A stretch of 63,658 nucleotides of DNA, counting the filler, from Sphacelaria rigidula (lineage: Eukaryota): NCBI GenBank assembly GCA_964200075.2. It is 3 parts of 3 records of this genome, joined end to end, with 100 filler letters (N's around TTAATTAATTAA, not from the genome) between each part and the next. Parts side by side here need not be neighbours in the genome. Positions count along the whole stretch, not along the records: positions 42,540 to 63,658 come from CAXNAA020000462.1; 2 more parts are not named here. One strand, written 5' to 3'. A program made the position numbers and the translations under genes. The notes below the pieces were generated by a model. The model did not search any database. It was not told the origin of the DNA and saw only the letters and a program-made list of their open reading frames with translations. This document shows, piece after piece, positions 21,176 to 60,614 of this stretch. Position 1 is the first letter of the stretch. Each line of letters opens with the position of its first letter.

Positions 21176-21275
21176 NNNNNNNNNNNNNNNNNNNNNNNNN
21201 NNNNNNNNNNNNNNNNNNNTTAATTAATTAANNNNNNNNNNNNNNNNNNNNNNNNNNNNNNNNNNNNNNNNNNNN
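21176..21275. other. Artificial contig linker
   Basis: 44 N + TTAATTAATTAA (stops in all six frames) + 44 N. Confidence 0.97.
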
Positions 21276-22132: not shown

Positions 22133-22410
22133 TTCTTCACATTAAAAACCGTTCCGATATCTGCGCAGTACTCTGTACTGGGCATCTGATGCGGACGCCT
22201 TCCATGGTCACAGGCTAGCTACCCCGAGCTAGGGTAAATTAAACTCATAAAATATATAGGGGCTGGTAAACATCGTATTCTGCGGTATCGAAAACGCTTA
22301 GATGATACTCGTAGATCCCCCGATACTCCTGTTTGTAGGGTACCAGGCTTTTTCAGACAGAGTTGTAACATCGGTTTGTCGTGCGTGGCCCGTTTTTACT
22401 GTCTTTCCAG

Positions 22411-25400: not shown

Positions 25401-26700
25401 TGACCATCAAAGGAAAGGAAATACGAAACCCCCGGCGCGTGTGATTGTGGGTACCCCTGGATCCCGTATACCAGTAGTATATCCTCATGTTCCTGCCCTT
25501 GCGTTGTCGAAACGGAACAGGTGATCGATTATGAGTACTCCGGCTACAACCCCCGAGGATTCGACATCGCCAACCACTTCTGCGAGGTACGTGCTCGATG
25601 ACCTAGCTCAGCGAACGTGAACTCGTGATGGTGGTAATGGCGTGATGCGGTGAAACTGTTGCCATGCCCACGTGGAGTACTGGCGCAGTTGACTACGTTG
25701 GCATGAGCTAAACCGCGGCTGGTGACACACATGGTATTCTCTGACAGGTTCACCGATTCTCTTTTTCTCGTGTGTTGTGCTTCACTCTATGGCGGGTATC
25801 ATATGCGGAGGAGATGGATAATGGCAAATATGAGCGAGGGTGGGGCGAAAAATAACTTGTCTGAAATTAACTTCCTTTTAGAATGCTGCTATTTGCACGG
25901 CACGAATCAACCCTTGGGCCTTGATTTTAGCGTTGCATCCCCAGGCACGCCGGATAGCGCAAAATGTGCACACACGTTTTTCGATCCGTGGTTAATTTCC
26001 TCCCCTCTTTCGAGTAATCAGACGTCAGGAATTGTAGAGTTGGTTATTGGAACCGGAGAATGTCCATCCGAAGCTTGAATTTGGGGACACTGACCCAGCC
26101 TTGATCCTGTGTACCGCGGCGCTCGCTCCGTCCGATGATTCCAGTAAACACCACCCCACGCAGGTCATGTCGTCACCTGTTTTCAAGTAGGGGTGTACTC
26201 TGCCACGTTTCATGCGATGCACATGTGGCATGACAGCCCCCGTCTCGCTAGTCTCAATCTACTTCAGTGATTTCTGACCATACGCCCTTTTCCTGTCTTG
26301 TCCCCCGCCCCGTACACTGTTTGATCTTGACCCCGTCTTGACAACTTCATGTTCTGCAATCCAGCACGCTGGTTTCGACTCTAATTACGCCAAATCGTAT
26401 CCTTCCATGGAGACCAAGACTGCGTTTTTGGCGGCCTACGTGCGTGCAGTGGAACAATCCTCACAGAAACAAGGAGGAGACGATTCGACCCCATACCCGC
26501 GTGCCGACGACACGTCATTTATAGCGGCTTTGGCCACTCAAGTAGACCGCTGGACGTTACCTTCGCATTTGTTTTGGGCTGCGTGGGCGGTGGTGCAAGC
26601 ACGCTATTCTCCGATCGACTTTGATTTCGTAGATTACGCGCGACTGAGACTTTCCGGATATCGGCTCCATAAAGGAGCCTTTTTTGACGCGGGTGCGTAA
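22411..26700 (+). CDS. Choline/ethanolamine kinase; 5' part missing
   Basis: Exons 22411-22518, 23944-24134 (acceptor tentative), 25521-25586, 26365-26700. Brenner motif VLSHNDLLSGNIM, kinase motif VIDYEYSGYNPRGFDIANHFCE, C-terminal SHLFWAAWAVVQARYSPIDFDFVDYA; TAA at 26698. Confidence 0.93.
23251..23402. mobile_element. 152-bp hAT MITE (CACACCCTG-end family)
   Basis: Ends CAAACCCTGGAC / GTCCAGGGTGTG with a perfect 8-bp TSD, AAATAGTA, on both sides. Confidence 0.9.
24370..24735 (+). mobile_element. tRNA-derived SINE-like element
   Basis: A-box GGTGGCTCAGTTGG, B-box-like GGTTCGAAG, CA-rich tail. Diverged second copy at 56492-57055. Confidence 0.75.
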
Positions 26701-42439: not shown

Positions 42440-42539
42440 NNNNNNNNNNNNNNNNNNNNNNNNNNNNNNNNNNNNNNNNNNNNTTAATTAATTAANNNNN
42501 NNNNNNNNNNNNNNNNNNNNNNNNNNNNNNNNNNNNNNN
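42440..42539. other. Artificial contig linker
   Basis: 44 N + TTAATTAATTAA + 44 N. Confidence 0.97.
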
Positions 42540-42986
42540 GGCCCAACTCTAAATGTATAAAAGAGCATGGGCCTGCAAACTTCAAATCCGCCTCTAGGCT
42601 GTCCCAGCTCGTACGGCGGGAGGGTTTTCACAGCGTGTAGTTTTTGCCGTGCATCGTTTTGCTAACCGTTAGGATTTAGAGTTAAGGGCAGGATCCGTAG
42701 TGTATGAAGTATCACCTACGCACGGTACACTGTTTGGCTCGTCATTGTCATGACCTCAAGATTCTTCTCCTGCTGTACTGTATTATGACATGTAGGGTCT
42801 TTTGCCTTCTTCATCCTACGGCTGGACGATAGTTGTAGCGGGTACATGGGATGTTTGTCGTAAGTAGACAACAAGCCCTCAGCACACAGCAAGGAAACGT
42901 TCGCACAGAGGTTGTGTAACCGACCGGCACGTAGTAGCTGCGAGTAGCAAGTGGTCGTTATGTGACGAAATCGTTCCTGCTGACAG

Positions 42987-45276
42987 GTCACGGCGCCCGA
43001 ACTGCGCGGTGGAATGGTGATCAGCGGGCAGGATGCCGATTGCATGAGTCTTTTCTGCTCGAGCGACATCATGACCAAACTGGGTGAGCGACGATTTTGC
43101 GAGATGCACAAGGTGTGGGGTGCCGTGGTCCGATACCGCCGTGTACTGTCTTTCCATAAGCCTGTTGGGTTGCTGGATCAACCGGAACCGGTGCTACGTT
43201 GCACTGCTTTTAACGAATCAGGTGTCGCTGGTTACAAACAGAACTTGGATCACAGATTCTCTCCCTACCCAGTTGCTTCACAGTTTTTCATTCATGTACT
43301 GGATATCCACACTGATAGCCAGCTACAGCTACCTACCGCTACGCTGTTGAGCTATTGGCGGTACCGGACGGTAGTCAATGATTTGTCAGCGTACACGGCT
43401 ATGCTCGACAATACCATACCTCATGAGACTACTGTATGGCAAAACCAATTTGGAAAGGATCATCATATATAAGGATTATTTAATGCAGACGCATTGCATC
43501 TTGTCGAGTTGAAAAAGTTTTTTGAGAAGGATATTGTTGGTATGATACAGTAGTGCTCAGCTAATGCATTGTGAAGGAGTAGCGTATTGTCGATAAGCGC
43601 AACAGATGTGACAAGCTATATATCTGTATGGAACAAAGCAGTTGCCACTTAGTATGTAAGTGCTGCACATAGATATAACACTAGCATGCGCTGAATTGAC
43701 GCCTCCTTTGATAATATCCACGAAAACCCTTGAAAGATCCCGATCTTGGACGGACGAATGCATCCAGTTTCCAGCCTCGATGATCCTGACGGAACACCCC
43801 ACGTTTGCTTGCTGTTCTAATGTATCTGTCTAGGTGGTCACCCGGGAGCCATAGTGGCTGTTAGCAGCACCCTCGGAAAGCGACCTGAACAAGGGCGCCA
43901 CCTCCTGAGAGACGAGCACGACTACTTGGCCCACATCATACCGGCGCAGCTAAGCAGGTGAAGATGGCATACTTAGCGGCCTGGAAAGTAGCATGGAATT
44001 CTCTGTTTTGCTGAATATATACTTGGAAAGTATGCATACATCGCATAGTACATACCTGGTCGAGGTCGGTATGCTTTCCGCTTGGTCCTTCGGTATGCAC
44101 GACACACTTAAGGGGTGAGGTGTCTCGAATATACCTTGCTTGATGTTGATACAGTCTCTTTAAGCGTTTCTTCACCCAATGCTATAGCAGGAATGACCCC
44201 AGTTGTGTGCAGACTGTCATCAGCAAATTGTCGATGGGTATCGGACGTTGGGCGTGGACGCTTATGCCAGTCGGCAGACGCAATAGTCAAGACATCTCAG
44301 TGGTGCCGCGATAGTCCCCCCTCCCGAAAGGGCGAGAAAACTGTCGCGAAGAAATGGCCATACAGTGCGCCGAGATGATTGATGATGGCTGGTTTCAAAA
44401 ACCAAGAGTTGAAGATTATATTGAAAAATGCAGATATAGCTGGTTGTAGAAACCACCTTTGAATTTCATTTCGAATGCAGTCACATCCGTTTTCAGAAAC
44501 AAGTAGGGCTCTTGACGTTACACGTCATAAAGTTCGTTGCACGTCACAAGTTAAGCCAGGCTAGTACTACTGTGGGGGCTACGTGGTCCCCCACCGTAGT
44601 ACTAGCCAGGCCCGACGCTTAGTTTTGTTTGACTTGACTTTACACAGGGCTGCGCGTGTAAGGAATTTTGTGACGTGTAACGAAATTTGTGACGTGTAAC
44701 GAACTTTGTGACATGTAACGTAAAGAGCCCTGGAAACCAGTTGTGAATATTTTTTGAAAGAATGCAGATATAGCTGGTTTCAGATGCCAGATCTACACAC
44801 CTCAAAAGAAGACTTTGCCTCGGTCCCCGTTACATTTTTCTGGGGCGGGCTACCGCGGCATCACTCCTATTACATGGATTCAGTTTGGTGAGCTTTTTGC
44901 AATTACCCTTCGTATCGTCTTCGAAATTTAGGCTCAGATAATGTAGCAGTCTGCACATGAACGAGATTCCATTCATGTTCAGCGTTCAAAGATGATTCTA
45001 GAATGCTCATTTTCGTGATGTGATCGGGGGTACGTACAAGAGTAGATAACATGATGTCAAGTGGCTGGCTTGTCGGGGGTTCGTTTTTTTTTGTCCTTTC
45101 GGATAAAAATGCTCCAATGTATTCTATATATTGCGCTGAGATTGTTATGGAATCTTCGCTTGATGCTTGCGTGACCTTATGATAAACTGCCACGCCGTGT
45201 CTCTACCAAGCCAGATATAAGCAGCTGGACGAAGACTTCGTGAAGCAGCATCAGGATTCCCCGCAGGAGCCAAACG
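42987..45276 (+). CDS. Tentative upstream exons of the SH2 gene, with a STAND-like GxP motif
   Basis: Exons 42987-43083, 43834-43957, 44191-44237, 45211-45276 are open and phase-compatible with each other and with the exon at 46227. Spliced protein includes DIMTKLG|GHPGAIVAVSSTL. Confidence 0.5.
44504..44732. mobile_element. 229-bp hAT MITE
   Basis: TIRs TAGGGCTCTTGACGTTACA / TGTAACGTAAAGAGCCCTG; TSD GAAACAAG / GAAACCAG (7/8); internal inverted repeat GGCTAGTACTAC...GTAGTACTAGCC. Confidence 0.88.
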
Positions 45277-46226
45277 GTGAGGTCCTTTTCAACCATCACT
45301 TCTGGGACTAGGGAAGCAGTCAGTGCAGAGTGCCCCCCGCACACAGACAGGGGAGATTGCACCCGCGAGACATAGCAGCACAGTAAAGGACGAGATATAG
45401 GTGTGCGCACTCGGAAGTTTGAAAGACCAGCGGAAGACGAGGTCTGTGTGTTAGCGCACTGGATGGGTCGAGGGTACTTGCCCCTGTAACACAGACGGGA
45501 CCTTTATCTGATCTCGCTCGTCGGTGACTCAATAGCGGTGCAGTAGTTTTACTTGTTATACGCTGCTGTTATTGTCCGCGACTGAGTCGGAAGCTTGCAT
45601 ACCCTGGACGAAAGAATACACAGTCAAAAAGCGCACTGCGTACAGTATCGACTGTTGCGCCTGTTGCAACAGACAATATCTTCCATCCTGCACGCAGTAC
45701 ATTTTTTGACAAAATAACCTCTTGTCCAGGGCGTGAAACTTCGCACGAGAAGGAACGTCTTCCATGCACCAGGTGAACAAGTTTGTTGACCTTCGTCTCT
45801 TCTTGAAAGTCGGAACGTTCACGTGGTCCAGCCAACCGCTTCGAAGACCCACCTTACGTGGTTGTCAATACTATCTGGAGGGAGAACGATGTTTGCGACA
45901 GTAGTGCAGTACGCATACAAGTACAAATGTCTCGTGACTTTTATACCGTCTGCCAATTTTTGACAGTATTCGTGGAAACGCTTTCTCGGTTGTTCTGATT
46001 TCTATTTTCCCACGAGCTAGATGAAGGCAGGACCCAGAAATGAAAGAACTGCACGTCGATGAGGGAAAAGAGGCGGGGGGAAATACTCGTTATTTGAGTC
46101 GCAGTATATGTTATTCATACATGGAGAAGGAATTTTTCTTTGCCCTTCTAGTCCTACCGCCCAGACCCACCTGCCTGCCTTCCTATATGCCTGCCGCCCC
46201 ACCTACTCGCCTGTGCTTGTTGCCAG

Positions 46227-49200
46227 GTGGAAGAGCGACGTTTGCGATAGAAGTGGAATGGAGCTGGCCTCGACCAACGAGGTACAACGTCAGCTCCGCG
46301 GTCGGTGCAGCACCGCCATCCGTGCACGTGCCCGTTGCCTCGTCTCTGGGAGAGCGCTTGTGGAACCAGGCCGTGGAAAGGCACGTGGGAGTGGGTGCTA
46401 CGTCAAATACGCTGCCCTGGAAAGCGCTGTACACTTTCAGCTTGGCTGAGCACTTTCTGTCAGTGATGGGAGACGATGGGAGATACAGACCATTGCAGGT
46501 CAGGCCAAACATCGCATGCCGTTCGCCTCTAATGTAGTGGTGTTTGATGTGTGTGTTTGTTTTCTTGTTGTGTTGTGGTCGTTGATATTTGAGAGTTTCG
46601 GGTGTGCTGTGCGCTGCGGTGATGTTACAACCCATAAGAGATCGGCGCGCTTGGAGGGTGCATGTACCACCGCGCGTTTTATGTTGGTGTTCCTTTGAGG
46701 CGTATCCTCCGCAAAAAGCGGGCTAGGGTGAGGAGGAGATGCACCGCTGAACAAAAATCCACTCATCTCGCAGTGAGTGAGTGCACGTAGGTAGGTAGCA
46801 CTACCTGTAAATGAACGTCTTATGCGCATGTCGTAGCTCCGAATAGCATTTTGATTGTGCTGTTCACGACTCTAGTCCTCATTGTGTCAAGATGGTACCT
46901 GTCATGCGAGGTCATCCTGGTGGGCGGCAGATCTCCCCCACGAGGATTTCAAGGGAACACTATTGCTCATTTTCATGTGATTCCCTCCTCCCTCCATCCG
47001 AATCTGTCTCGATTGAGTGACATTTGCCCTGTATGTGGTGTACGGGGTGCTTTGTATCAGGAGATCGTCCCCATGTATCCAGTATGGATCACGTCGTGGT
47101 GCACCGCTCTTCGTACCACGTGTGAAATCCGGTGCACCCTGTGGCAGTCAACAAACATACGCTGACAGGAGCAGGCGACTGACGGGCCGCGCCTGTGTCG
47201 CTTGCTGCGGCTGTCGGGCGTTAGCATTTGTCCAGTTCTATGCATTTTTTTTTCTGTCGAAAATGTTCTGAAAATGGCGTGCAGTATAATCACTACCTTC
47301 ATGTATCCTCACTTTAATCGGGTGAGGGGTCGTCAACTCGGAACATTTTTTGTACCAGGGACAAGCGAAGAAAGCTAGGCAATGCGCTTGGGGTACGTAC
47401 GCTGTATTGGTGCACTCGGTGCGAGCGAAGCATGCCGTACCGATGTGACCCTTCACTAGCTTTGAGGGACGCTTAACAAAATAATAATGCGCCGCTTGTT
47501 TGATGCTGCTCCTCTCAGGACGAAGACTTCCAGACTCTCGGAGAACACGAGCAACTGTGGAAGCCGTGGGCTCCGCCAGCGACCCAGCCGAACGGAATAG
47601 TGAAACAAAAAGCGTTCTTGGGCAAGTTTTGGGCTTGGTTCGAAGCACTGACGATCATGCTCAAGGTGCGTGCGCCTTGTTTCTGTGGCTGGCGTGTTTT
47701 TTCTTGGTGCAAAGCGTGACCGAAGCGTAAACGTTTTGCTGCAAAGTGTGACCATGTTGACGGGCAGCATGAGCCATATCACCATATTGAGATCATTTAT
47801 TTCTCGGGTTCCTCGTTGCGATATTTTCCGGTCCTCTATGTATCCTATGACCACGGCCAGATTCCAGCGGATGAGCTGATGTTAATGTGCGACAATTAAT
47901 CAGTGCATGAACTGCCATGCAACCAACCATTTCTACTCCAGGAGAGGCCGTTTGACACGGGTCTAAAACACGAGAGACAGCCCGTGTAGACATGAGCATC
48001 GAGACGTTTGGGGCGCTTTAACGGCGTAAACAGTAAGTACATTCACCATGAGGGACTGTAGCGCGGTCGGTTACCTACAGCCGAATTGAAAATCTTGGGA
48101 GATCATGAGTTTGCAACGTTTCGAGGGTAGGTGTCCCGCATGGTGTCTGGTAGGGTGTGACGGGTAAGGGCCATACAGTATCCAAAAAGCGAGCATTTTA
48201 GGATGCTCTTTTTTTTTATTTACGGTATCACCATCAGACGTGATATTTGATGACAATTTTCGGGGATGAATACAATGTTGACATGCAACACAAAGACCCG
48301 AAGTAACTCCATTCTCACGGTCAGTTCATGACCACTTATGGGCGTACGTACTGGTCGTCGAGGGTCACACCCATTGACATACCTAGGTTTGGACTCTTTG
48401 ATGTTTTTAGTCGATCCCCCGATTGTTCTGGTGGACAACTCTCCTCTACAGTAGTAGTTCATCAAAAATCGGCGATTTCGTAATTTTTTTGCGCGGTCGG
48501 GGATACTCGACAAGTGTTCTCGCGTGACACCGCTCATCCCAGTCAGTGAAAGTTTGATCCCAAAGTTTGGAGATCGGGAAATACTAGGCATCCCCTTCAC
48601 ATTCCGAAATAAGATCGCATCTGCACTCAGTTTCGAATGACTTGCGGGCTGACCGGTTTTCGGGGGTCCTGCGACTTTCCAGCCCCAGTTTTGACCCCTG
48701 AGTATTTTTGCTCAACTGAAGCAATCCCAATCGTTTTCGTGGACAAATGAAGAAGAATGATTTTTCTATCACTACCTATTTATTGCGCTAGAGCCAAAAA
48801 AGTGTGTTTTTTGGACCAGTGACAGTCGGTAACACACCCCTGATAAAGGAAGTAGTTACTCCTTATCACCCCGACAACACCAATTGAGAATTGCGTTTTG
48901 AGCATGGTCTGCTTCTCTTCCAAAAATATATCGACGCTAGGACTTTCGAGTGCCAGGGACAGGTACTACACGAGAAAATCCAGAGAAGTACCCAAGAACG
49001 AAGATTGCCCAACAGAGCTCTGAACAGCACAGGCGGGGATGAATCAATTCCGATTACTCTCATAAATGATCTTACGGACTCCTACCTTTTTTTTTACCTC
49101 TTCATCGCGCTAGAGGCGAAAATAAATGTGTTTTGGACCAAAAACGGCCAATAACACCCGCTGTCAATTCAGCACGTGAGTCGATATTGAGCGCAGAGAC

Positions 49201-52200
49201 GATTGTTGTTTCGGAATGTGGAGCGGATAATTAGTATCTCCCGATTCCCAGACGTCAGGATCAAGCGTTCACAGGAATGAGCGGTGGCACGCGGAAAAAG
49301 TCATTGAAAATCGCCGAGTGCGAAAAAATGACAAAAATCCCCTGCAGTATTTCACATGAAAACTACTGCCGCCGAAAAGCCGTCTTTTTGGCTGACATAT
49401 TACGACGGATGAGATGTCCGTTTCATTTTGGGAGGAGCATGACGAACAACACAAATTTCCGGCCTCAGGCCGCTCCTTATGGCAGACAAAAATAAAAGAT
49501 CTGGAAAGTGCCTTTTTGGAGCTTTTGCGTCGTTTTACGCCCTGAAAGAAAGCTAGGCGGATTTTGACACCTTGGATTGCTTTGCTGTACTCGTTGAGAC
49601 GGTCTCAGCACACTTGTGCGTTTTTATCGTGGTCGCAGTTTTTTTTTGCCCAAACTTGCATTTTTCACGGAGACGGGTCATTTTTGTTGGAGATCGGTCA
49701 AGTCCAGACAAATCTCGGAATTTTTCCTGGACTTGACCGGACTCCAACAGAAATACAAGTTTGAGCGAGAAAAAAACGGCGGCCGCCGGAAAAACGAACA
49801 ACCGGTAAAAGCCCGTGCGTCGTTCTAAATTGACCGTGGGAATAATATTAATTTCGGAATTTGTGTACTGTAGTGTACGCATATATTTGTTGCCTCAAAA
49901 TTTGGCCCACAAACGAACGGCTTTTGAAATGTTTGCTCTGTGGGGTAGGTGGTCTGAAAACGTGTCGTGTCCGAAGGACTGACACCGCCCTGTTCACCGT
50001 GCAACACAAGGGTGAAATCTGCACACCCTGTGCCAGCTTGGTTTGCATACTCTCTCCGCCGCCCGTCACATTCGCATACGCGTATCCCCCTGTGCCAGCT
50101 TGGCCACAACTGTATAGGAGTGAAGTGTATCTGTACCGTTTCATCTGCATGTGCATGTGCCGTTCGCTTTCGCAGCACACGGGGCATTGGGGGAACCGGA
50201 ACTACCCGGTAATTTGCAGCCTCACCACGATTACCAATTACGATGGCGAGGCGCTGCTGCGGGGAAGGCCGCCGGGGACGTTTCTCATGCGCGTGAGCGC
50301 AAGCAAGAACGGGACTCTGGTGATCATGTATGTCGACCGCCGTAAAGAGGTAAGTGGAGACTGCCTGCCTGCCTGCCATGCGTTATAGTAATGAAACTTC
50401 AAACATGGTATTCACTCAATGTGGGGATTATTTCACGAACGACTTTTCACCTTCACTCGAGAGTTTGGGAGTCGGTAGGCGCTGGATGAAGAAAGCAGGT
50501 CGTGCTCAGGACATATTTCCCAATTTTGTGTTGTCGGAACGATGCGGAGTAAAACCAGTTTTGTCGAGGGGGTATTATTTACCGTATACGGCCGAAAAAC
50601 ACGTTTTTTCGGTTTGAGCGCAATCGATATTAAGAAAATAGGGAAACAGAAGACATAGTATTGTGCATTATAACAATTCGGATTGGTTCGGTTGAACGAA
50701 AATATTGAAGAGCGAGGACCGGGGGCCGTACACTTGTAGGACCCCCAAAGACTCGTGAGCCCGTATTTCGTTCAACATTTGCCGTAGATTGTATTTTCGC
50801 TCTCGAAACTTGTGTCGGGCACCTATTTCTATCGATTCTCGAAGGTTTGCGATCAAGTAGAAACCGTTATGAGTTTTGGTAACCGAAAAACCTGAAAAAA
50901 TCGCTTTCAATCTACGCGAACGCGAAGTTCGAAGTCTGGCTAGTGTTTTGTGTTCGCTCTCTCAGTCAAGAGGTGTGGTTGCCTTGCGTGAGAGCGTTTT
51001 GTGTTTCATTTCGTTTTTCAACCAACTTCGGCAGGATTCAATGTGTATTTTCATGTTGCATGCGGGTAGTATTAGCCGCCACGAGTCGATAAAGTACACG
51101 AAGTATCGTGTGGCGACACCAAGATATGTGTCACGACAAAATGTGTCGAACGGTATAAAAGACGACAGTGAGAATCTGTGGCATGGTGAATAATCGTGGG
51201 ACATGGGACGGTTCTCCAAATATTTCCTTGACCTTAGGTTTACCGTTAGCGCTGACTATTTGGTCTAAGCGCGGTTGAACTGACTGCCATTTATCAACCG
51301 ACGCAAAGCGCAAGTGTGGTTGTTCTAAGCTTGTGAGAAAATTGTCGTTATTTCAAGGGACAAGTCTCACGCTGGGCTCGCTGCCATTTCAGCGTACTCT
51401 CATTGCTGGAAGTTGCATGTCATGCAATGGATGCCATACTGTACTGGTGTTCGTGTCGCGCTCTTGCCGAGTTAGCTCGCCGCTAACTCGTGAATGAACC
51501 GTCCTGCCCGAACTTTTCGGTTCCCAAATAGCGTTCCCAGGGTCTCGTTCATTATCGTTTGGTTTCTGTATCGCGTCCCTACCTAGTACCTGGGGCTATG
51601 CGGCCGGAGCCTCACGTTTTTTTACTTCTCGGGGCCGCTACTAGTGCTGTACTTGATCTATCTTACCCTGGCGCTTGTCTTGTTCTTGTGTTTTCCGATC
51701 CTTTCTTCTTTTTTTTATTTGCTCGCTTTGTTTTCATCTTCCTTTTTCGTAGTCTGTCTTTCCCCTTCATAAAGTTCCCTTCCAGCGAGTTGTTCCGTCT
51801 GTTTACCTTGGTTACGTGTATCTTATGGATACCGACCACGAGTGGGTGGATCGGCACCGGATGAGTTGATATTAATGTATGATAGCCAACCGCTCCATCA
51901 ATCCAATCAAAGGTCTGCTTTTTATGACCACCATTACGATAAGTGGAGCATGACCGTATCGGAGGTGCAGTCACTCAGCGGAGTTTCATGTGTGTGCAGA
52001 AAAAGCGACGCGGCTCTTGCAAGCATGCATGTAGCGTATATATAACTATAGGTTGTAAGTTTAGCCCGACGGCTAGGTACTCAGCAACATCTGTATCAGC
52101 GAGCGTAAATTGCGTTTAATTCATTCGGCGTTTTCGCTGAGGGCATCTGACCTCGATATTGTGAGAGACGGGGGTATGAATCATTGCAGCGTAGTGACAA

Positions 52201-53276
52201 GGGGTTCGAGTAGAACTCACCACGCCGGCGCATTTGATGTACCTCACGGGATTTCACGTAACGGCGCCACAATCTGAGGGACACGGTACCCGCAGACGCA
52301 AACTTGGAGAGGGGCAACCGAACTGGAGCTGCTTGATTTCACCATACACTTCCAACATGATATCTACATATATATATATATATATATGTGTGTGTATCCC
52401 GTTGTTTCATGTGGAGTAGGGTGTGCACAGCCTTGACCTCACGAGCGTTGTGGTGTGTAAGATTTTTTATCTGCATTCGACACGAGGCGAATTTCGTAAC
52501 ATATAATGGCGCTCTGGTGTAACACCCTCGACCAATGCAAACGTACGTTTACTTCTGAGTTTGCGCTGATAGGGAGCTACCAGACGCCAGCGTTTGCAGC
52601 ATCGGCTCCGGGTGCGTTTTCTGTCGTCTGTCATGTAGCACGAACCTTGTCACACACCGCTCTCCAAGATTGCGCAATAGAGCACACTGTTCTATACGAG
52701 ACAACTTCATACACACAGGGTTCCTTCGATACTGTGTAAGCGCGATACTACTCCTAGTCTGCGTCTGCAGACGTCCACTCTCTTGTTGAGCTGCACTTTT
52801 TGAAGCGAGTAAGACCGTCCGGGGTTCGCTCACACCCTCTGCCTTGATTTATATTTTTTCCCTTCAAGGAACAAGGAAATCCGACTCCACACTCACCCCG
52901 CAATCGCTTCCTTGATGGGCGCGAGTACCCCAAGTGGTGCCCCATCAAATACTCTACAATCATGTAACTCAACTACAAAATAGTATCGTCTTTTTTTAAT
53001 GCTCTCATGCACACAACGAAGTTGGCTCAGCATAAATACGCTAATCAGCCAAACCCTTACGCCCCACCGCCCAATTATCGCTTGGACACGACGTGAGAAA
53101 TACAGGTGGTGAGTGTCCCAACGCAAGTGAACAAGAAGGGCAGGTTCCAAGCGGAGGAGACCGCACCCGACGGGAAGCATGTGCGCTTCAGCGCCGCGCT
53201 GGGCGATCTGGTCCGTCACATCTCCCTTTTGACCCATTTATTCCCGGACACCCCGAAGCGAATAGCTCTAGCGTAG
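46227..53276 (+). CDS. STAT-type linker + SH2 domain protein, C-terminal exons
   Basis: Exons 46227-46498, 47519-47665, 50176-50349, 53106-53276 with phase-0 junctions. Protein: LPWKALYTFSLAEHF..RPLQ|DEDFQTL..GKFWAWFEALTIMLK|HTGHW..EALLRGRPPGTFLMRVSASKNGTLVIMYV..LGDLVRHISLLTHLFPDTPKRIALA*. Confidence 0.88.
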
Positions 53277-54473
53277 GGATTTTATCGTGCTACCCCAACA
53301 CCCTGATGGCGGCAATGTGGCTGATTTTTCGACTCGGCGCCATTCATCGTTTGATAAATTAGTCAAGTTCTGTTCGTCGCCTCTGTTCAGAGGTCATTTG
53401 TGTGAAGTTGGGAGGATCCAGAAGCGACGGTAAGGTAGATCCACGCGCGAAGATGACATGTCTGCAGCAGAGGATTTGCCGGGCTGTGTGTACTGCACTT
53501 GCGTGGTACTGTGTGTACCTTGAAAATATATACTTTCTTGCTGTTGTAGAGTAGTAGAGAGTTGAGGGTGCACTGTAGCGCTGCCCTTCGGCTGCACGCT
53601 ACGGCGCATATGCTGAATAGCTATGCCGTAGCCACAATTACTTCGTCGGGGTCCTCGTGGTCGTCTGCAGCCGTTGATCTGTTTCCCGTACACGAGTTTG
53701 CTCCAAGTTCGGAGATGGGGTACATGTTGAGACCGCGATCATCTTCCAGCGCACGTGAAATAAGCGCAGGTCTTGTATATAGGCGCTCCCTTTTTGTTCG
53801 CGTTGGATTCATGAAGTCGGTATCCCTGAAGATGTGAGACAATGGGCTTTTACGTGGTGTGCACTTCCGTTTGCCGCGGGATATTTTGTCGCTCTTCACA
53901 GCGCCCCCCACGCCGAAATGAGTCGACCGCTTCGGCGAATTTACATAGCATTGCTATCGTATAGTACAGTGCAGAGTAGCAGTGAATTCCCAAGGTGATA
54001 AAGGAGGCCAAAGCACGAATGGTCAAGTATTCACTGGTAGCTGCCGACACACATCATATTCTCGCCCCTTCATGTGGATGCCTCGAGGACGCTTGTCCAA
54101 CCTCTCCCTGGGCTGTCTGATGAGGCAAAAGCCTGATGACAAGAGAACGCTCTTTTTTTTTTGTCCCTTTTGCCGCGAACGCCGAGACATCGACACAGTA
54201 GAAATACCCTGTGGCGCTTTACTGAAACGCCCCCGCCCAACCCCCATACAAACATTTTGACCTGTGATTTCATGCGTACAATATACTCCGGTGTACCGAG
54301 CAACTCAGCACCAGCTCGTCGGGTGTTGCCTTTATATCTCTTGCAATTTCTCCCATTACACCGGCGGTATTGCTGGCGTTTCGCTGTATCCTATTATGGC
54401 ACCGCGCTGTGATATCTGACGAGACTTGTGCTCTATGTCGAATCTCTGAACGAAGATACGAACACCTCCTCCT

Positions 54474-57400
54474 TCACTCATCAGCTAGAGGACCCCGGCC
54501 TTCACTGACTATTTTCCAACTGATCTCTTCGCCAGCTCTGAGAGGCACCACTTTAGTTTGCCCAAACGTGTACGATGCGGGCACCTTCCATGCCTGTTTG
54601 GCAACTGTCACTGTTTCTTCATTGCGGGGGATTCCGTAAAAGTCGGCGCCATGGTGACCGCAGAACGCCGCTAGCCTGCCGTCACGCGGATGCCAGCGGA
54701 ACGAAAAAGCAGTTGGATCGGTGACGTCAACGATATGCGTGCCTGGTTGGAGGCAGTGCAACGCTCAGAACTCGTGAAATATTGAGGGCTTGAAATACCC
54801 AACACGTCAATCTCCCAATCTCCCCGTGTCGGTACTATCGTACGATTGGAAGACGACAAAAACTGGATCCTGGCAACGGAGCGGGGGTGGAGGAATTGCC
54901 TGTCTTGCACTTTTACCACAGAGCCCTGCCATAACCAACGGTGCATTTACTATTTGCTCAGCGACAGACTCCGTGATCGTGCGCTAAATCAGGGGTTCGC
55001 TTTCATACAACTTTCAACGCTACGCTCGCACGGGAGTACCATATATTATTCACATCTACCGTTTGCAGCCTTGTGGCAGTACTGTAGGCGTAAGACTACT
55101 GGCAGCGCCACGAACCTGTCCAGAGCTCCCTCGTCGTCGAAAACTTGACAGTACAGCTCCACGGCGGCGTGACCAGTGAAAATACCGGCGCACCCTGAGA
55201 AAATAAAACGATCGGACGAATGTACCGTGGAGGGTTACTTACTACACGAAAAAAAAGGGCGTGAAGCTGGAAGAGTGTATGTGCGGTGCGAAGCATCTAC
55301 TATTGTTAATGCCTCGATAAAACTTCACAACGTCTTGTGAACATACGGTGTCGAGCTTTTAATCAGGCATTCATGGATTGACCCCTACTCTTCTCCATGC
55401 CTGTCAGTCGGGAAAACGAAAACACATCCGGGGCATCGTGGATACTTTTCCAAACGCAATCACATACGTGGTACAATATGTAAGACTCTCGGCTGTGGAT
55501 GTGGGCACTCGAGTTTCACTGAACTTGCATTTTTGCTCTCCATCCTTCGGTCGCGATAGCTGTGGCGCCCATCTGATATCGAATGCCGTGGTGTTTGGTT
55601 GCGTGTGGAAATGTTCGTCCAGTAGTCGCGAAAAGGTCGCTGGCGACCAGGCTATCGTGCTCATGCAGCGACACCGGAGAGATATCACGCAGTCAAGTTA
55701 CGCCTACTACCTCCGGTCCTGCACATACCATGCCCCATGGTTCCACTCGCAAGATTAAGTATACACCTTGCTGTTGAAGGCATGTTGCACGCCGCTAACC
55801 TCGCCTAATTAGAGGCTACGCCCCGCGATTGCGATCGATCTGAGGATGGCACTGGTCCGTCCCACTGTGCAAAACAATGCACCACTGCCAAGCCGCTGCT
55901 CACCACACGGTGCAATCTTGGCCTCTTGCGCATGAGGTGCACTATCCGTACCCAAGAAGAATTTGGGGTTTCCGCTCGTAGCTGCCTTAACTAGTGCTTG
56001 CCGATGCTCCTCGCGCTTGAGGACGGGGAGGCAGTACATGTGCGGTCGGATTCCTCCCTGGCCAGAAGTATAACAAGAAACACCGCAGTGTGGACGGGAC
56101 ACTCAGTAGCAATAACAGGATATCGACATGAGATAAAACGAGAAACATGCAGCAACAGCAACAAGGTATCGAATTTCGGGGGCTTCGAAGCACCGATCAA
56201 ACAATTCGTGTCACGTTCAAGCTCATGCGGCGTTAACATGTGTCGAGGGCGACGCTAAAAAACAGGGACCAAAAGTAGAAGAGAACTCCATCGATGGCAA
56301 AGTGTACAGTGTGCCGTTGTACTTTGTAGAGTATTATATAGTCAATGGATGTTTTTTACAGTAGTATGGCAACTACTGGTATGAAGTTCTCACCGTACCA
56401 CCGCGCGCACGACAAATGTGCTGTACTTGTGCTGTTTACTACTACATGGACGGTACAAAAATAGCCAATACAAGACGCATTGTACACCGAAAGCCGGTCG
56501 CTCAGGTGGCTCAGTGGGTAACCCCGAAATCTTCCAAGCGTGTGTTGGGTGGGGTATTTCCTACATTGGGGTATTTTAAAAAGTTGTTCTCATGTATGTA
56601 CCCAGATATTGGGTAGAGTATTGCGATCGTACCTACCTCTGCCCAAATATCTGACAAGAGGTTGGAGATCGGACCATCGTAAGGTAAGATTCGGGAGAGT
56701 AAGTATCCGGATGTTTACCCTTCCCAACACACCGTTGAAACCTTCTGATGGCTGGGACGTGGATTTGAATCTCCGTGAAGTCATACAAGCTGGGATTTTT
56801 CTTCATATTATGCCCAATCGTGGAGAGCGACCATGTCGTGAGTACACAACGTACGACTTCACGGTCGACGAGGAAAAGGGGCCGCCGAACCCTCCTCGTA
56901 ATAAAAAGTAAGGCAAGCAAAGCAGAAGGAAAGTGGAGTGCTAAAAACAAATTAAAAATGAAAACATTTCTCCTGCGTAACCCCGGCTGATGCGCCCGCA
57001 TATAGCGAACGATGTACACCTGCATCCAGGATAGCTGGGATGACAGCATACACATCAAAAACATATCTCATTATACTCAATCGATGATATTTTCTCATTC
57101 GCTACTACCAACCTGTACCCTGACACAATAGCGTGCATATTACAGTGGGTACAAGACATGTGGCATGAGGAACGGGTGAGAAAAAGCTTCGCTGTAAAAC
57201 TCGTTAGACAGTACTGGTAGATTATCTAGAAACCCTGTCCTTTTCTGTCATTTCAGATTGTAACTGATTTGAATACTTTTCATTTCTCGAGAAAAAAAGA
57301 CACAAATGGGTACGCCACCACTTGTTTCAGCCCAAACATAGGTACAGGTAACCGCCGCAAGTTGGAGCTGTCCGTGCTAGGCCCAAACCATTGGAAAATC

Positions 57401-59290
57401 AATCGCGATGCGAAGGCAAGACACCCACAGCCCATGCAGAGCATGCAGACCAATTTTCGCGAAAAAAAAGCGCGATTTAGGGCCAAACAGCACCGCGGGA
57501 AACAAGGGCCTTGCAGCGTACCCTATTTTGTCCGACAATGGGGGTAGGTGTACCCAGTAAAAACTAAGTTTATCTTGTACCTCGTTGTGTCTTGTCCTAC
57601 CTCATATCATGTCCGAAGTGTACCTCTATTTGACCAATGTCGCCTATCCACAGCCGCTATTCAACCCCCCGCACGGCACTAAATCGAATGGCCGAAGATC
57701 ATCTCCAACCTTTCTTCTCACCTCTTTGTACGACCTGGAGACTCCAGAGCACACAATTATTTTTACTTTTTTTCACGACCTGGAGACTCAAGGCCCCACG
57801 CTTCTTTTCACCTCTTTCTACAGCCTGGAGACTCAAGACCCCTGCAGAGTGATTAACAGGCGTCTTGCCTTCGCGCCGGGATTGATTCTTGAGTGGTTTG
57901 GACCTAGCACGGACAGCGCCAAGATGCGCGGTTACCTATACATACGTTTGCGCTGAAATAGGTGGTGGTGTGACCACTCTTGTCTTTGCCCATTTTCCAA
58001 ACGTATATCATAGGCAGCGGCAAGATACGTGAATGGCAACACGGTGTTTTATTTGGGAGAAGTAAACGCATCACGGCAGAAATGTGTTTGAACCTACTGA
58101 CAGTGTTCTGCTTCAATTGATACACCACCGGACGCCTCTCGGGCATTTACTTTCATTGCTCCTGATTGCATTATTGCATCTCCCCCCGAGCGGAGTGACG
58201 GGGCGGAACGAACCGGGCGGTCTTTGCGGTACACTAATGTTTTACCTGGAAAATGGCGTTGCGGTTGTAGAGCAGGTGCTGCGGAGTAATGGTAGCTGCC
58301 ACGTTCGCCGGTGCCGACATCACGAACTCCACTGCCTGCGACGTGGTGATGTGCTCCATGACCACTTTCAGCTGCGGTAGACGCGCCACAAGCGGCTGTA
58401 AATGTACATGCAAATACGCTCGTTAGTTTGGTTATTGTTGAGAAGCACACAGCCACGTTCCCACTGCATATACACAGCGACACAGACTGTACAAGGAGCA
58501 ATCAAATTAATGTCGGGTCGATTACAACATAAAACAAACGTGGAAGGTACAAGCGCCAAGAACCGAAGCAGCCATCACACACAGAAATCGATGAGACACA
58601 CGGACGACCTTCCTTGCCTCCAGTTTTCGCAGCGTGATCGCTTAGGCAAGAGGAACCCAGCGTATCCATTGCCACATGATATTTTACCGATTCCTTGAAG
58701 GGGTTCCGCGAATATTCAGCAGCACTTGTGCGGAAACGCCTCTGGATATTGCGATTGGTGAAAAACGCCCGTAACGCAAGTGACAGAAGGTGCCACGTAC
58801 CTTGATCACGTCCTCAATAAAAGTTGCCTCCTTGTCAAATATATCCACTCCAGGCGTCGTCACCTCTCCGTGTATGAGAAGAGGCATCCCCTCTTCTGCC
58901 ATGGTCTGGATATACATTTTCACGGGAAGCATGCACATCGTTAGTAATACACGCAGTGCTTTGCAAGACATGGATGGCGGGTAACAATGAGGGTATGTCG
59001 TCAGCGAGCTCCATGGGCATCACTCACCACATGTTCACCTCACCCGTGGCGTCGAAGCTCCGTCTGACTGAAACGGCACCGCTATCTCGTGTGTATATGA
59101 ATGCACCACAATGGCAGCGGTCAGATTTTCGAAGACGAGCACATTGAAAGTACGTTTCAACGGTGGAAGCTTAGCGCGAAGTTTAATGAACTGTCGGACT
59201 GTCCGTCGGGCTGCATCCACTCACTCGCCTCCATGGTTGGGTAGACCTTGTCAAAATCCGTCACCCCCGAGGCGGAGTTGGTGGTTGCTC
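54474..59290 (-). CDS. pyrC: Dihydroorotase, class II (E. coli PyrC / yeast URA4 type); 5' part missing
   Basis: Exons 59290-59229, 58905-58801, 58395-58246, 56057-55904, 55194-55116, 54675-54474. Motifs [65 protein letters not shown]. Confidence 0.97.
56492..57055 (+). mobile_element. Second SINE copy, interrupted by a small inverted-repeat insert (56540-56732)
   Basis: Colinear with 24370-24735. Insert ends GTGTGTTGGGTGGGGTA / TACCCTTCCCAACACAC. Confidence 0.75.
57308..57976. mobile_element. Non-autonomous element with about 120-bp inverted arms (MULE/foldback-like)
   Basis: 57308-57426 is an imperfect reverse complement of 57859-57976. Three internal 45-bp repeats contain CCTGGAGACTC. 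TSD not resolved. Confidence 0.75.
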
Positions 59291-60614
59291 CTGTTGCCGC
59301 CCACGAAATGAAACAAAACACGGTAGCGACACACACACACGCACGCACACATAGCAGGTTTTCTTAATCTTGACTTAAGACCGGCTGCTGATACCAGCTG
59401 TCACAACAACTCCACACGACCGTGTAGGTACTGACAAGGCACCGTTGTTGCTATTAACAAGAGACATTATGAATTTGCCTGAAAAGGGAACGGTTCACTG
59501 TGACTGCTTTGGTGAAGACCATGAAGCGGTATCCCACGAGGACCGGAAATCGTGAGCAAATCCTTCACATGACCATCATGCACCCCCGCTGGTGACGTGG
59601 TGCAGCCATATCAGGTATAGAATCCTCGGGGGGATGTACTCTTGATCTTGCATGCCATAGTCATCTGACCATTGACCTCGCATCCGTACAAAGCCGGGAC
59701 GGAGCACGCCGGGTATTCGCCGGACCAAGCTCGCAATGAATCACCAAGCGCAAAGCGATATAGAAAAAATCCTCGCGGGGGGTTGTTTTGTCGTTTTGTT
59801 TCGTTTACGGTCCAACAGACTCCAGTAGAGTTTTCATCATAATCATCCGGTTTCATTAGGTGTGGTGAACACTGGCATACTAAAAATGGTGGACATATCG
59901 TACTCGGTCTTTTATCCGCTGCTGTGAGAAAACAGCATTCCAACTCAGGCGCATTCCCCAGCCTGCCTTCCGTAACACCCCCGGACTGTACTTCTGCGTT
60001 TCAGCGCATCGAATCTTCGGGAAAAATTGCAAAAAAATGAATGCAGAGTACGCAAAAATTATCCCGGGATCGACTTGATCAAAATAGACATTCCATGGAG
60101 GAAGCTGAATGAAGTGAAACCACAAACCCGGACCCCCAAACACTGGCAAGTCCGTACACAACTGCTTCTAATTTCACGAACTACAACTCCCTTTGCGGGA
60201 GGGGGGGGGGAGGGGGGGTCATCATACTCGTGTTTATAGATGCTGCAAGTTCAAGACAAGAAATTGACAACGATGAGACACTGTGCTTGAAGATGCACAA
60301 AACCATATCTCAGAAGTAGTTCCAAAAACGAGCCGGATAATCGCCAAAAATTCTGTTCGTCGCGTGCACTGCAACGTATTTTTTTCTAATCGGAAAAAAG
60401 AACTGATGAATGCCCAACGTATTGAAAATTATGCCGAAATAAATTTGACCCAGAACGACGCCTAAAAGTCAAACTCTCTTGGTAACCAACCGGTAAGGCG
60501 ACATTAAAAATTAAGGCGAAGACATGAATACTAAATACTAGTACAACTACCTCTCGATCCTGAAAGTTTGGGGCGAACCGTTGACGCCACTGCAACACAG
60601 CTTCCGGAAAAAAA

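What the first reader, a model, noticed from the sequence alone, without database searches (positions are those of the whole stretch)
42987..46498. Possible STAND/NB-ARC ATPase fused to the STAT-type SH2 (best candidate for a new system)
Seen: four upstream exons chain in frame into the SH2 exons, giving ...DADCMSLFCSSDIMTKLGGHPGAIVAVSSTL...TVISKLSMARYKQLDEDF. Known: STAND ATPases have L...A..LF, then I...(C/L)GG(L/H)PLAI....S.L (GxP motif), then a LSY..L helix entering the winged helix. Inference: an NLR-like switch using a pTyr-binding STAT SH2 in place of TPR/LRR/WD40 sensor repeats, linking tyrosine phosphorylation to STAND signalling. Caveats: Walker A/B would lie beyond the contig start, LF-to-GxP spacing is short, and the 44191 and 45211 exon boundaries are weak.
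Basis: inference. Interest (0 to 1): 0.7.

Follow-up and report, generated by a model that had tools for sequence, protein, structure and literature searches.

The report
Brown-algal STAND ATPase ending in SH2
These exons are the expressed rear part of a brown-algal gene whose full-length relatives join a caspase-like domain and an NLR-type ATP switch to a STAT-type SH2 phosphotyrosine reader, a combination I could not find described.

Summary
The finding lies at the 5' end of the third of three contigs that make up the window. Spliced RNA contigs from 3 of 3 RNA-type runs confirm three of the four proposed upstream exons: 42987-43083, 43834-43957, and 45215-45276 (acceptor 4 nt later than proposed). 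They are joined to 46227-46498 and on to the SH2 exon and a stop at 53274-53276. The proposed exon 44191-44237 is skipped, so the "TVISKLSMA" stretch is not in the dominant mRNA.

The mRNA contigs run about 1,145-1,262 nt further 5', beyond the contig start. That sequence was not obtainable.

The 348-residue spliced product aligns end to end (42-44% identity, E 1e-79 to 1e-86) with the C-terminal part of full-length brown-algal proteins from Ascophyllum, Ectocarpus and Hapterophycus, and one intron-less 774-aa ORF that I take to be from a transcript contig. These relatives carry:
- an N-terminal CHAT/caspase-fold domain whose His/Cys dyad appears replaced;
- a Walker A/B P-loop NTPase whose weak matches all point to the STAND class (NACHT, NB-ARC, nSTAND);
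- a STAT-type linker plus SH2 (STAT6 E 2.7e-8).

The core inference is supported through homologues, not directly for this gene. I read it as a new variant of the STAND kind.

The parts
42987..43083 (+). Coding exon, the first on this contig. It encodes the stretch '..ELRGGM.ISG...CMSLF...IMTKLG' of the helical lid that follows the NTPase core.
   Evidence: An RNA loose end starts just before 42987, and the joint 43083>43834 is present in 3 of 3 RNA runs. tblastn hits from P0034, P0037 and P0039 have E 9e-6 to 1e-4.
43834..43957 (+). Coding exon carrying the GxP-like motif (HPGAI at 43839-43853) and the 'HLLR.E..Y' helix.
   Evidence: Joints on both sides are present in 3 of 3 RNA runs. H-P-G-A-I is invariant in the 4 aligned full-length homologues. 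The C-terminal part is conserved in the read-through ORF P0033.
45215..45276 (+). Coding exon ('YKQLDEDF...'). The real acceptor is 4 nt downstream of the proposed 45211.
   Evidence: Joints 43957>45215 and 45276>46227 are present in 3 of 3 RNA runs. The exon is conserved in P0033 and in all full-length homologues.
46227..46498 (+). Coding exon. It holds a conserved 'F.IE.EW' start, then a variable low-complexity spacer, then the first half of the STAT-type linker domain.
   Evidence: RNA joints. There are 19 exon-sized homologous ORF fragments among 32 HMMER hits. The family profile aligns this part to the STAT6 linker.
47519..47665 (+). Coding exon: second half of the STAT-type linker ('FLG.FW.WF').
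   Evidence: RNA joints; tblastn E 2e-9 to 3e-10; STAT6/STAT3 alignment.
50176..50349 (+). Coding exon: N-terminal half of the SH2 domain, with the pTyr-binding Arg of 'GTFLMR' at 50290-50292.
   Evidence: Pfam SH2 22.0 bits against a cutoff of 21. PDB hits are SOCS4 and STAT1/3/6 SH2. RNA joints.
53106..53276 (+). Last coding exon: the rest of the SH2, the STAT-like 'LFPDTPK' end, and the stop at 53274-53276. The 3' UTR continues and overlaps the convergent neighbour's 3' end.
   Evidence: RNA joint 50349>53106; translation; alignment to homologues and to the STAT6 'LYPKKPK' end.

Best explanation
The region holds three real coding exons of an expressed multi-exon gene, plus the next exon at 46227. 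The gene's product belongs to a brown-algal family with the architecture CHAT/caspase-fold domain, then STAND-type P-loop NTPase, then a short helical connector and disordered spacer, then a STAT-type linker and SH2. The window carries only the last 348 codons: the end of the NTPase module (helical lid with the conserved HPGAI, a GxP-like motif), the connector, the linker and the SH2.

Proposed working, by analogy with STAND/NLR switches (inferred, not shown): the NTPase holds the protein in an ADP-bound off state. Engagement of the C-terminal SH2 by a phosphotyrosine ligand releases it for nucleotide exchange and oligomerisation. This clusters the N-terminal caspase-like domain as the output. 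Because that domain appears to lack the catalytic His/Cys dyad, it would act as a scaffold or partner for an active protease rather than as a protease itself.
For: Shown for this gene:
- Splicing of exons 42987-43083, 43834-43957, 45215-45276, 46227-46498, 47519-47665, 50176-50349 and 53106-stop in 3 of 3 RNA-type runs, and in 0 of 1 DNA-type run.
- An open 348-codon frame.
- An SH2 hit on exon 50176-50349 at 22.0 bits against a cutoff of 21.
- RNA contig coordinates that leave about 1,145-1,262 nt of mRNA 5' of 42987. This is close to the 426-429 residues (about 1,280 nt) that precede the equivalent point in the homologues.
- The 10 codons of the loose end are open and end in a 'VT..ELRGG' context like the homologues.

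Shown for the family:
- The window protein aligns over residues 1-348 with 5 of 5 long homologues at 42-44% identity, E 8e-79 to 9e-86.
- The homologues have Walker A and Walker B motifs.
- STAND-type Pfam matches occur in 5 of 5.
- There are weak NCBIfam matches to the NB-ARC-TPR proteins HaaT (P0039 residues 265-467, E 4.6e-4) and FxSxx_TPR.
- ESM Atlas neighbours of P0039 residues 240-520 are NB-ARC/NACHT/nSTAND clusters at 0.92-0.97, with 10 of 10 sharing the clan.
- The best Foldseek hits of the P0040 model are ZAR1 (E 1.4e-3) and Sr35.
- VIA-align gives MLA13 Z 9.1, MalT Z 9.0, NRC2 Z 8.5 and ZAR1 Z 8.3.
- For CHAT, Pfam gives a hit in 4 of 4 proteins that have an N-terminus, 1 of 4 above the cutoff. 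Foldseek to SAVED-CHAT 8tl0 gives E 5e-9, followed by caspases 1/4/8 and CED-3.
- For the linker and SH2, the family profile matches STAT6 at E 2.7e-8 over both domains, and also STAT3, STAT5 and STAT1.

A single mRNA encodes all modules in at least one species. P0037 is an uninterrupted 774-aa ORF on a 3,454-nt contig. P0035, from the same or a near-identical source, is the genomic exon fragment that reads into the intron at the same donor.
Against: - The N-terminal half of this very gene was not seen. It is off-contig, and the 30-nt loose end was found neither in the window nor in JGI metagenome contigs.
- The window protein is only 42-44% identical to the full-length relatives, so it is a divergent paralogue or orthologue.
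- Its 10 known upstream codons do not reproduce the homologues' 'AAELF'.
- No STAND family reaches its curated Pfam cutoff (0 of 5 proteins).
- The family profile finds no STAND chain in the PDB at E <= 1.
- PADLOC gives nothing meaningful.
- VIA-align ties plant NLRs with ORC/Cdc6 AAA+ proteins (Z 8.3-9.3), so the fold alone does not separate STAND from ORC/Cdc6.
- Both AlphaFold models are of low confidence (mean pLDDT 44.5 and 39.9).
- No winged-helix domain is evident between the HPGAI motif and the STAT linker.
- The position where STAND proteins have a sensor-1 Arg reads Q in the family ('VTQ' or 'VNQ').
- Exons 1 and 2 on their own hit no Pfam family at E <= 10.
- The mechanism is wholly inferred.
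Confidence: 0.75

Rival explanations
1. This window gene is a paralogue that kept the helical lid, linker and SH2 but has a different N-terminal half, with no P-loop or a degenerate one. It would then be an SH2 adaptor rather than an NTPase switch.
For: The N-terminal part was never seen. Identity to the full-length relatives is only 42-44%. The 10 upstream codons from the RNA loose end do not match the family's 'AAELF'.
Against: The alignment to the homologues runs right to the first residue of exon 1, including invariant family residues of the NTPase lid ('ELRGGM', 'CM.LF', 'HPGAI'). The length of unseen 5' mRNA (about 1,145-1,262 nt) fits the homologues' 426-429 upstream residues.
Confidence: 0.12
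2. The family's P-loop module is a generic AAA+/ORC-Cdc6-like or other ASCE NTPase rather than a STAND switch. The HPGAI motif would then be a family-specific helix cap that only resembles GxP.
For: All STAND Pfam hits are below cutoff. VIA-align ranks ORC/Cdc6 chains (Z 9.3-8.2) level with NLRs. There is no PDB sequence hit, no evident winged helix, and no sensor-1 Arg.
Against: The best-scoring Pfam families per protein are NACHT, nSTAND3, NPHP3_N and AAA_16, and no ORC/Cdc6 Pfam family is listed. NCBIfam lists one weak orc1/cdc6 hit, TIGR02928, E 0.036, for P0039. Atlas neighbours are STAND in 10 of 10. Foldseek ranks 1-4 are plant NLRs. The tripartite effector-NTPase-ligand-binding layout and the 'F.GRE' motif before the P-loop are typical of STAND proteins (the latter is recalled).
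Confidence: 0.1
3. The fusion is an artefact: two neighbouring genes (a STAND gene and an SH2 gene) were merged by gene prediction or by contig assembly of overlapping transcripts.
For: One homologue, P0038, is clearly an over-merged model, with AP-3 beta adaptin fused in front. One RNA contig in X8 also runs on into the convergent neighbour.
Against: The same colinear architecture occurs in 4 independent sources. P0037 is an uninterrupted ORF on a short contig that I infer to be a transcript. In the window the frame is continuous through six spliced junctions in 3 of 3 RNA runs, with no stop or start signal between the NTPase lid and the SH2.
Confidence: 0.03

Closest known systems
STAND NTPases (NB-ARC of APAF-1 and plant NLRs such as ZAR1/Sr35; NACHT; bacterial nSTAND/Avs; MalT)
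   Same: In the homologues: an N-terminal effector, then a P-loop NTPase with Walker A/B, then a helical lid with a GxP-like motif, then a C-terminal ligand-binding part. The best sequence, language-model and fold neighbours are of this class.
   Different: The C-terminal part is a STAT-type linker plus a single SH2 instead of TPR, LRR, WD40 or ANK repeats. No winged-helix domain is evident. The sensor-1 Arg is not conserved. No family cutoff is reached.
STAT transcription factors and the plant 'STAT-type linker-SH2' proteins (the latter recalled from Gao et al. 2004 and Williams & Zvelebil 2004, neither read here)
   Same: A contiguous linker plus SH2 module with the 'FW.WF' junction, 'GTFL.R' and the 'L(F/Y)P..PK' end. 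The profile match to STAT6 has E 2.7e-8 over both domains.
   Different: There are no STAT coiled-coil or DNA-binding domain hits in 5 of 5 homologues. The protein ends a few residues after the SH2, so it has no tail tyrosine. The module sits behind an NTPase.
CHAT proteases and caspases (SAVED-CHAT 8tl0; caspase-1/4/8, CED-3, separase)
   Same: The fold of the homologues' N-terminal domain (Foldseek E 5e-9; Pfam CHAT).
   Different: In the alignment to 8tl0, the positions of the His ('GHG') and Cys ('NAC') read 'WNG' and 'TAA' or 'SAA' in 3 of 3 homologues with an N-terminus. That these positions are the catalytic dyad is recalled, not tested. The domain is not in the window.
Ectocarpus NB-ARC-TPR and LRR-ROCO candidate immune receptors (PMC3341825, passages read by term search)
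   Same: Brown-algal NTPase-centred candidate receptors.
   Different: Those use exon-shuffled TPR or LRR arrays. That paper's main text has no occurrence of SH2, CHAT or caspase.

Membership tests
STAND-class P-loop NTPase | Walker A GxxxxGK[ST] and Walker B hhhhD | tested here: inconclusive
   Present in 5 of 5 long homologues (invariant G-x-P-G-I-G-K-T and 'LLLVLDG'). Not testable in the window itself, because that part of the gene is off-contig.
STAND-class P-loop NTPase | Significant match to a STAND family model (NB-ARC PF00931, NACHT PF05729, nSTAND) | tested here: not met
   Hits occur in 5 of 5 homologues, but 0 of 5 reach a curated cutoff. The best are NACHT 20.9 against 26.7, nSTAND3 20.5 against 27.2 and NB-ARC 17.2 against 23.5. 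Window exons 1-2 alone give no family at E <= 10.
STAND-class P-loop NTPase | Helical lid (HD1/ARC1) with a GxP motif after the NTPase core | tested here: inconclusive
   H-P-G-A-I is invariant in the family and present in the window at 43839-43853. The NCBIfam HaaT alignment ends at this motif. Equivalence to GxP rests on position and pattern only.
STAND-class P-loop NTPase | Winged-helix domain after the lid | tested here: inconclusive
   In the AlphaFold models the motif is followed by one long helix and a disordered spacer, but pLDDT there is below 50.
STAND-class P-loop NTPase | NBD fold closest to STAND proteins | tested here: inconclusive
   Foldseek ranks 1-4 are ZAR1 and Sr35, but at E 1.4e-3 to 3e-3. 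VIA-align gives MLA13 9.1, MalT 9.0, NRC2 8.5 and ZAR1 8.3, tied with ORC/Cdc6 at 9.3-8.2.
SH2 domain (PF00017) | Match to the family model, and the conserved Arg of the FLxR motif | tested here: met
   Window exon 50176-50349 scores 22.0 bits against a cutoff of 21, and 'GTFLMR' is present. Among the homologues, P0034 scores 22.3, P0037 20.2 and P0038 13.2, while P0039 and P0040 are not listed at E <= 0.1. SH2 folds score Z 7-9.1.
STAT transcription factor | Linker plus SH2 module of STAT type | tested here: met
   The family profile matches STAT6 at E 2.7e-8 (profile positions 556-775 against chain 296-507), STAT3 at 7.8e-6, and also STAT5 and STAT1.
STAT transcription factor | Coiled-coil and DNA-binding domains, and a tail tyrosine | tested here: not met
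   STAT_alpha and STAT_bind are not listed for any of the 5 homologues at E <= 0.1. The proteins end 4-8 residues after 'PDTPK'.
CHAT / caspase-fold protease | Fold and family match | tested here: met
   In the homologues only: PF12770 scores 24.3 against a cutoff of 24 in P0037 and 16.2-19.4 in three others. Foldseek to 8tl0 gives E 5e-9. The domain is not in the window.
CHAT / caspase-fold protease | Catalytic His and Cys | tested here: not met
   Aligned to 8tl0, 'GHG' corresponds to 'WNG' and 'NAC' to 'TAA' (phmmer E 0.29). The same letters occur in 3 of 3 homologues with an N-terminus. The identity of the catalytic positions is recalled.

The most novel reading that the evidence does not exclude
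Brown algae possess an NLR-like switch gated by tyrosine phosphorylation. In this reading a STAND NTPase has as its sensor a STAT-type SH2 that reads a phosphotyrosine mark, either on a host or pathogen protein or on the family's own invariant tyrosine in the 'L..RY..L' connector that lies at the 43957/45215 exon junction. Its output is a catalytically dead caspase-like domain that recruits a cell-death protease. This would be an independent marriage of pTyr reading and STAND/inflammasome-style signalling in a lineage that evolved multicellularity separately from animals and plants.
Probability: 0.3. Interest if true: 0.85.

Novelty: new variant of a known kind. Interest (0 to 1): 0.7.

Why it matters
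STAND/NLR switches are known with repeat-type sensors (LRR, TPR, WD40, ANK). SH2 domains are known as phosphotyrosine readers in STATs, adaptors and kinases. A protein that places a STAT-type linker-SH2 where an NLR has its sensor, behind a caspase-fold domain, would link phosphotyrosine reading directly to a nucleotide-driven oligomerisation switch.

It occurs in brown algae, which have no described JAK-STAT pathway (recalled) and whose immune receptors are still only candidates. It therefore offers a concrete, expressed gene family in which to test how this lineage senses and signals, and how far back STAT-type SH2 modules were used outside transcription factors.

I found no description of such an architecture in searches or in the passages read. 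Supplements were closed, and the SH2 census of Liu et al. 2011 was not held, so prior listing in a table cannot be excluded.

Tried and rejected
- No whole genome is held for this window.
- Exon 46229-46498 in the word-indexed protein search found only the window's own ORF. Exon 43836-43955 found nothing.
- The ESM Atlas gave no usable hit for exon 46229-46498.
- PDB sequence searches with exon 2 gave only chance-level rows, and with exon 46229-46498 gave none.
- Of the 32 HMMER hits, 12 were multi-stretch repeat proteins. I read 6 of these 12. They are tail-fibre-like 'VWDEA.ADH..AGS.GE' and other repeats, and I set all 12 aside as spurious.
- The scan of JGI metagenome contigs with alignment A1 gave 311 pattern matches, none confirmed. 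Its pattern would not have matched the window's own 'VMG' variant.
- The 30-nt 5' loose end of the mRNA was absent from the window and from metagenome contigs, so the 5' part of the mRNA could not be recovered.
- No RNA holder was listed as such by the look-up of sequencing runs. X6-X8 were only guessed to be RNA, and their spliced contigs show they hold RNA.
- PADLOC gave only chance-level rows.
- Both AlphaFold jobs gave low-confidence models. The C-terminal linker/SH2 and the lid region are below pLDDT 50, so no statement on a winged helix is safe.
- VIA-align did not separate STAND from ORC/Cdc6.
- The open frame that continues from exon 1 into the intron (42984-43472, 162 aa) has no family hit and is not used by the mRNA.
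- The Liu et al. 2011 paper was not held.

Full report
Setting. The 63,658-base window is not one molecule. It is three contigs joined by spacers of 44 N, TTAATTAATTAA and 44 N, at 21176-21275 and 42440-42539. The finding sits at the very start of the third contig (42540-63658).

Checking the observation. In-frame chaining of short open segments is weak evidence by itself, so I looked for RNA. Nine listed runs hold the stretch or part of it, and four small ones were guessed to be RNA. I laid three of them (X6, X7, X8) and one DNA-type run (X1) on 42540-60000.

All three small runs contain one contig each (depth 164-288) with GT..AG joints at 43083>43834, 43957>45215, 45276>46227, 46498>47519, 47665>50176 and 50349>53106. 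The DNA-type run has none of these joints. This confirms three things:
- The exons 42987-43083 and 43834-43957 are real.
- The splice into 46227 is real.
- The chain continues into the SH2 exon.

It also corrects two things. First, the exon proposed at 44191-44237 is skipped in 3 of 3 runs. Second, the next exon starts at 45215, using the second of two adjacent AGs, not at 45211. The frame is still kept.

Homology agrees with this exon map. tblastn of full-length relatives against the window hits 42984-43085, 43830-43958, 46223-46498, 47516-47665, 50167-50379 and 53136-53273, and nothing at 44191-44237. The script ran five queries and I printed the rows of three (P0034, P0037, P0039). A rare isoform that uses 44191-44237 cannot be excluded from contigs.

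What the mRNA says about the missing 5' part. The spliced product of the seven exons is an open frame of 348 codons ending at a stop at 53274-53276. In each RNA run the contig departs from the genome just before 42987 (a loose end). By the record coordinates, the contig continues about 1,145 (X7), 1,150 (X6) and 1,262 (X8) nt further 5'. One caveat applies: the X8 contig also merges with the convergent neighbour at its other end, so contig ends are not transcript ends. Only the last 30 nt of that upstream part are shown. They read as ten open codons in frame. This 30-mer is not in the window and not in JGI metagenome contigs, so I could not read the 5' part of this gene.

Finding relatives. 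Single exons were all I could submit, because spliced sequence may not be typed.
- Exon 46229-46498 found only its own ORF in the word-indexed search.
- A full HMMER scan of 1.84 billion representatives gave 32 hits at E <= 1e-3. One was its own ORF. Nineteen were exon-sized ORF fragments that end at the same donor position ('RPLQ' followed by read-through), i.e. the same exon in other genomes. Twelve were multi-stretch repeat proteins that I set aside after reading 6 of them.
- One cluster member, P0033, reads through two short introns in a relative. It shows the counterparts of the end of exon 43834-43957, of exon 45215-45276 and of exon 46227-46498 in the order the RNA gives.
- A search with a trimmed alignment of the exon (A2) for longer proteins returned 9 proteins. 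Five were long: P0034 (765 aa, named by NCBI as from Ascophyllum nodosum), P0039 (799 aa, Ectocarpus sp. 6), P0040 (564 aa, Hapterophycus canaliculatus, N-terminally short), P0037 (774 aa, on a 3,454-nt Logan contig) and P0038 (1,918 aa, a EukProt model with AP-3 beta adaptin fused in front).

The spliced window protein, assembled inside a script, aligns over its whole length with the C-terminal 335-376 residues of all five. Identity is 42-44% and E is 8e-79 to 9e-86. P0037 must come from a spliced message. It is an uninterrupted ORF on a short contig, whereas P0035 carries the identical exon but reads on into an intron at the shared donor.

What the family is. From N to C, the full-length relatives have four parts.

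(a) A CHAT/caspase-fold domain.
- Pfam CHAT hits occur in 4 of 4 proteins that have an N-terminus, one at 24.3 bits against a cutoff of 24.
- The AlphaFold model of P0039 is poor overall (mean pLDDT 44.5) but reaches 63-78 over residues 130-200.
- Foldseek matches it to the SAVED-CHAT protease 8tl0 (E 5e-9), then to caspases 4, 1 and 8, CED-3, DdvA and separase.
- In the sequence alignment to 8tl0, the positions I recall as the catalytic His and Cys read Asn and Ala in the algal proteins. The domain therefore looks like a pseudo-protease.

(b) A P-loop NTPase with an invariant Walker A (G-x-P-G-I-G-K-T) and Walker B ('LLLVLDG'). Every line of evidence on its class is individually weak, but they agree.
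- Pfam lists nSTAND3 and AAA_16 in 5 of 5 proteins, and NACHT, NB-ARC and NPHP3_N in 3 of 5 each. All are below cutoff.
- NCBIfam lists the NB-ARC-TPR proteins HaaT and FxSxx_TPR.
- The ESM Atlas places residues 240-520 of P0039 next to NB-ARC/NACHT/nSTAND clusters at 0.92-0.97, with 10 of 10 sharing the clan.
- The P0040 model (mean pLDDT 39.9) has ZAR1 and Sr35 as its best Foldseek matches, at E 1.4e-3 to 3e-3.
- VIA-align scores MLA13, MalT, NRC2 and ZAR1 at Z 8.3-9.1, level with ORC/Cdc6 at Z 8.2-9.3.
- Against a STAND class, the family profile finds no STAND chain in the PDB at E <= 1.

After a '..AAELF' motif comes the block 'EL.GGM..SG...CM.LF...IM..L..HPGAI'. These residues are invariant among the four aligned full-length proteins and are present in window exons 42987-43083 and 43834-43957. 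This is where a STAND protein has its helical lid with the GxP motif, and the weak HaaT alignment ends exactly there. What follows is a long helix ('HLL..E..Y......L..Y..LE.EF', spanning the 43957/45215 junction) and a length-variable low-complexity spacer inside exon 46227-46498. It is not an evident winged helix, although the models are too poor there to be sure.

(d) A STAT-type linker and SH2. The family profile matches STAT6 at E 2.7e-8 over both domains, then STAT3, STAT5 and STAT1. The window's exon 50176-50349 passes the Pfam SH2 cutoff on its own and keeps the Arg of 'GTFLMR'. No STAT coiled-coil or DNA-binding domain is found, and the proteins end just after the STAT-like 'LFPDTPK'.

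Interpretation. What is shown:
- The exons are expressed and spliced into the SH2 message.
- The product is a full-length-colinear member of a brown-algal family.
- That family has a Walker A/B NTPase and a caspase-fold domain in front.

What is inferred:
- This particular gene has the same front half. This is supported by the fit of the unseen mRNA length and by conservation of the lid.
- The NTPase is of the STAND class.
- It works as a ligand-released oligomerisation switch with the SH2 as sensor and the caspase-like domain as output.

I put 0.75 on the overall statement. The main rivals are a paralogue with a different front half (0.12), a non-STAND AAA+-like NTPase (0.10) and a fusion artefact (0.03).

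Comparison and novelty. The family works like a STAND/NLR protein in layout. It cannot be filed as an NB-ARC or NACHT member, because no family model reaches its cutoff. It shares the linker-SH2 module with STATs but is not a STAT, and it shares the fold but apparently not the catalytic residues with CHAT proteases.

In the held literature I found no description of a STAND or NLR protein with an SH2:
- Searches returned nothing relevant.
- The brown-algal genome survey preprint has no occurrence of SH2, CHAT or caspase in its main text.
- The Ectocarpus NB-ARC-TPR/ROCO paper has none either.
- An eLife survey of conflict systems mentions SH2 only in metazoan TRADD-N proteins.

All of these were read as search listings or passages found by term, not as whole texts. 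Supplements were closed, and the SH2 census by Liu et al. 2011 was not held. The NCBI records of the homologues are 'unnamed protein product'. I therefore rate this a new variant of a known kind, with interest 0.7.

Noticed in passing
window 21176-21275 and 42440-42539: The window is three separate contigs joined by N44-TTAATTAATTAA-N44 spacers (a six-frame stop linker). Features on different sides of a spacer are not known to be neighbours.
   Followed up: yes
window 54474-59293, minus strand: A convergent neighbour gene encodes dihydroorotase (pyrC_dimer, exon-wise E 6e-12 to 5e-21). It has five introns confirmed by RNA joints, one with a GC-AG boundary (58906-59228). Its 3' end overlaps the 3' UTR of the SH2 gene, and RNA contigs of the two genes merge there.
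   Followed up: yes
window 42540-42584, 44289-44871, 45455-46037, 48953-49535, 56532-57114, 59447-60000: In the DNA-type run these bins have summed contig depth of thousands to 700,000, against about 70 elsewhere. They are therefore repeated elements. The one at the contig start probably explains why the assembly breaks inside this gene. 44640-44720 holds a short tandem 'GTGACGTGTAACGAA'-like repeat flanked by inverted copies.
   Followed up: no
P0038 (EukProt model, 1,918 aa): This model fuses an AP-3 beta adaptin (Adaptin_N, E 7e-108) in front of a family member. It is probably two neighbouring genes merged by prediction.
   Followed up: partly
window 46349-46400 (exon 46227-46498): The stretch 'RLWNQAVERHVGVGATS' draws multi-copy matches to tail-fibre-like repeat proteins ('VWDEA.ADH..AGS.GE') in the HMMER scan. 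I treated these as chance similarity to a repeat, but the motif resemblance is unexplained.
   Followed up: partly
window 42984-43472, plus strand: The frame of exon 42987-43083 stays open for 162 codons into the intron. It has no family hit, and the mRNA splices out at 43083.
   Followed up: yes
window 22302-26700, plus strand (second contig): Several open segments look like exons of a choline/ethanolamine-kinase-like gene (my recollection of motifs). The only test gave a weak kinase-family hit, E 0.003, for 26278-26700.
   Followed up: partly
window 43955-43957 / 45215-45217 (exon junction): A tyrosine invariant in the family ('L..RY..L(E/D).(E/D)F') sits exactly at the 43957/45215 exon junction, in the helix between the NTPase lid and the STAT linker. 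It could be a phosphorylation site read by the SH2. This was not tested.
   Followed up: no
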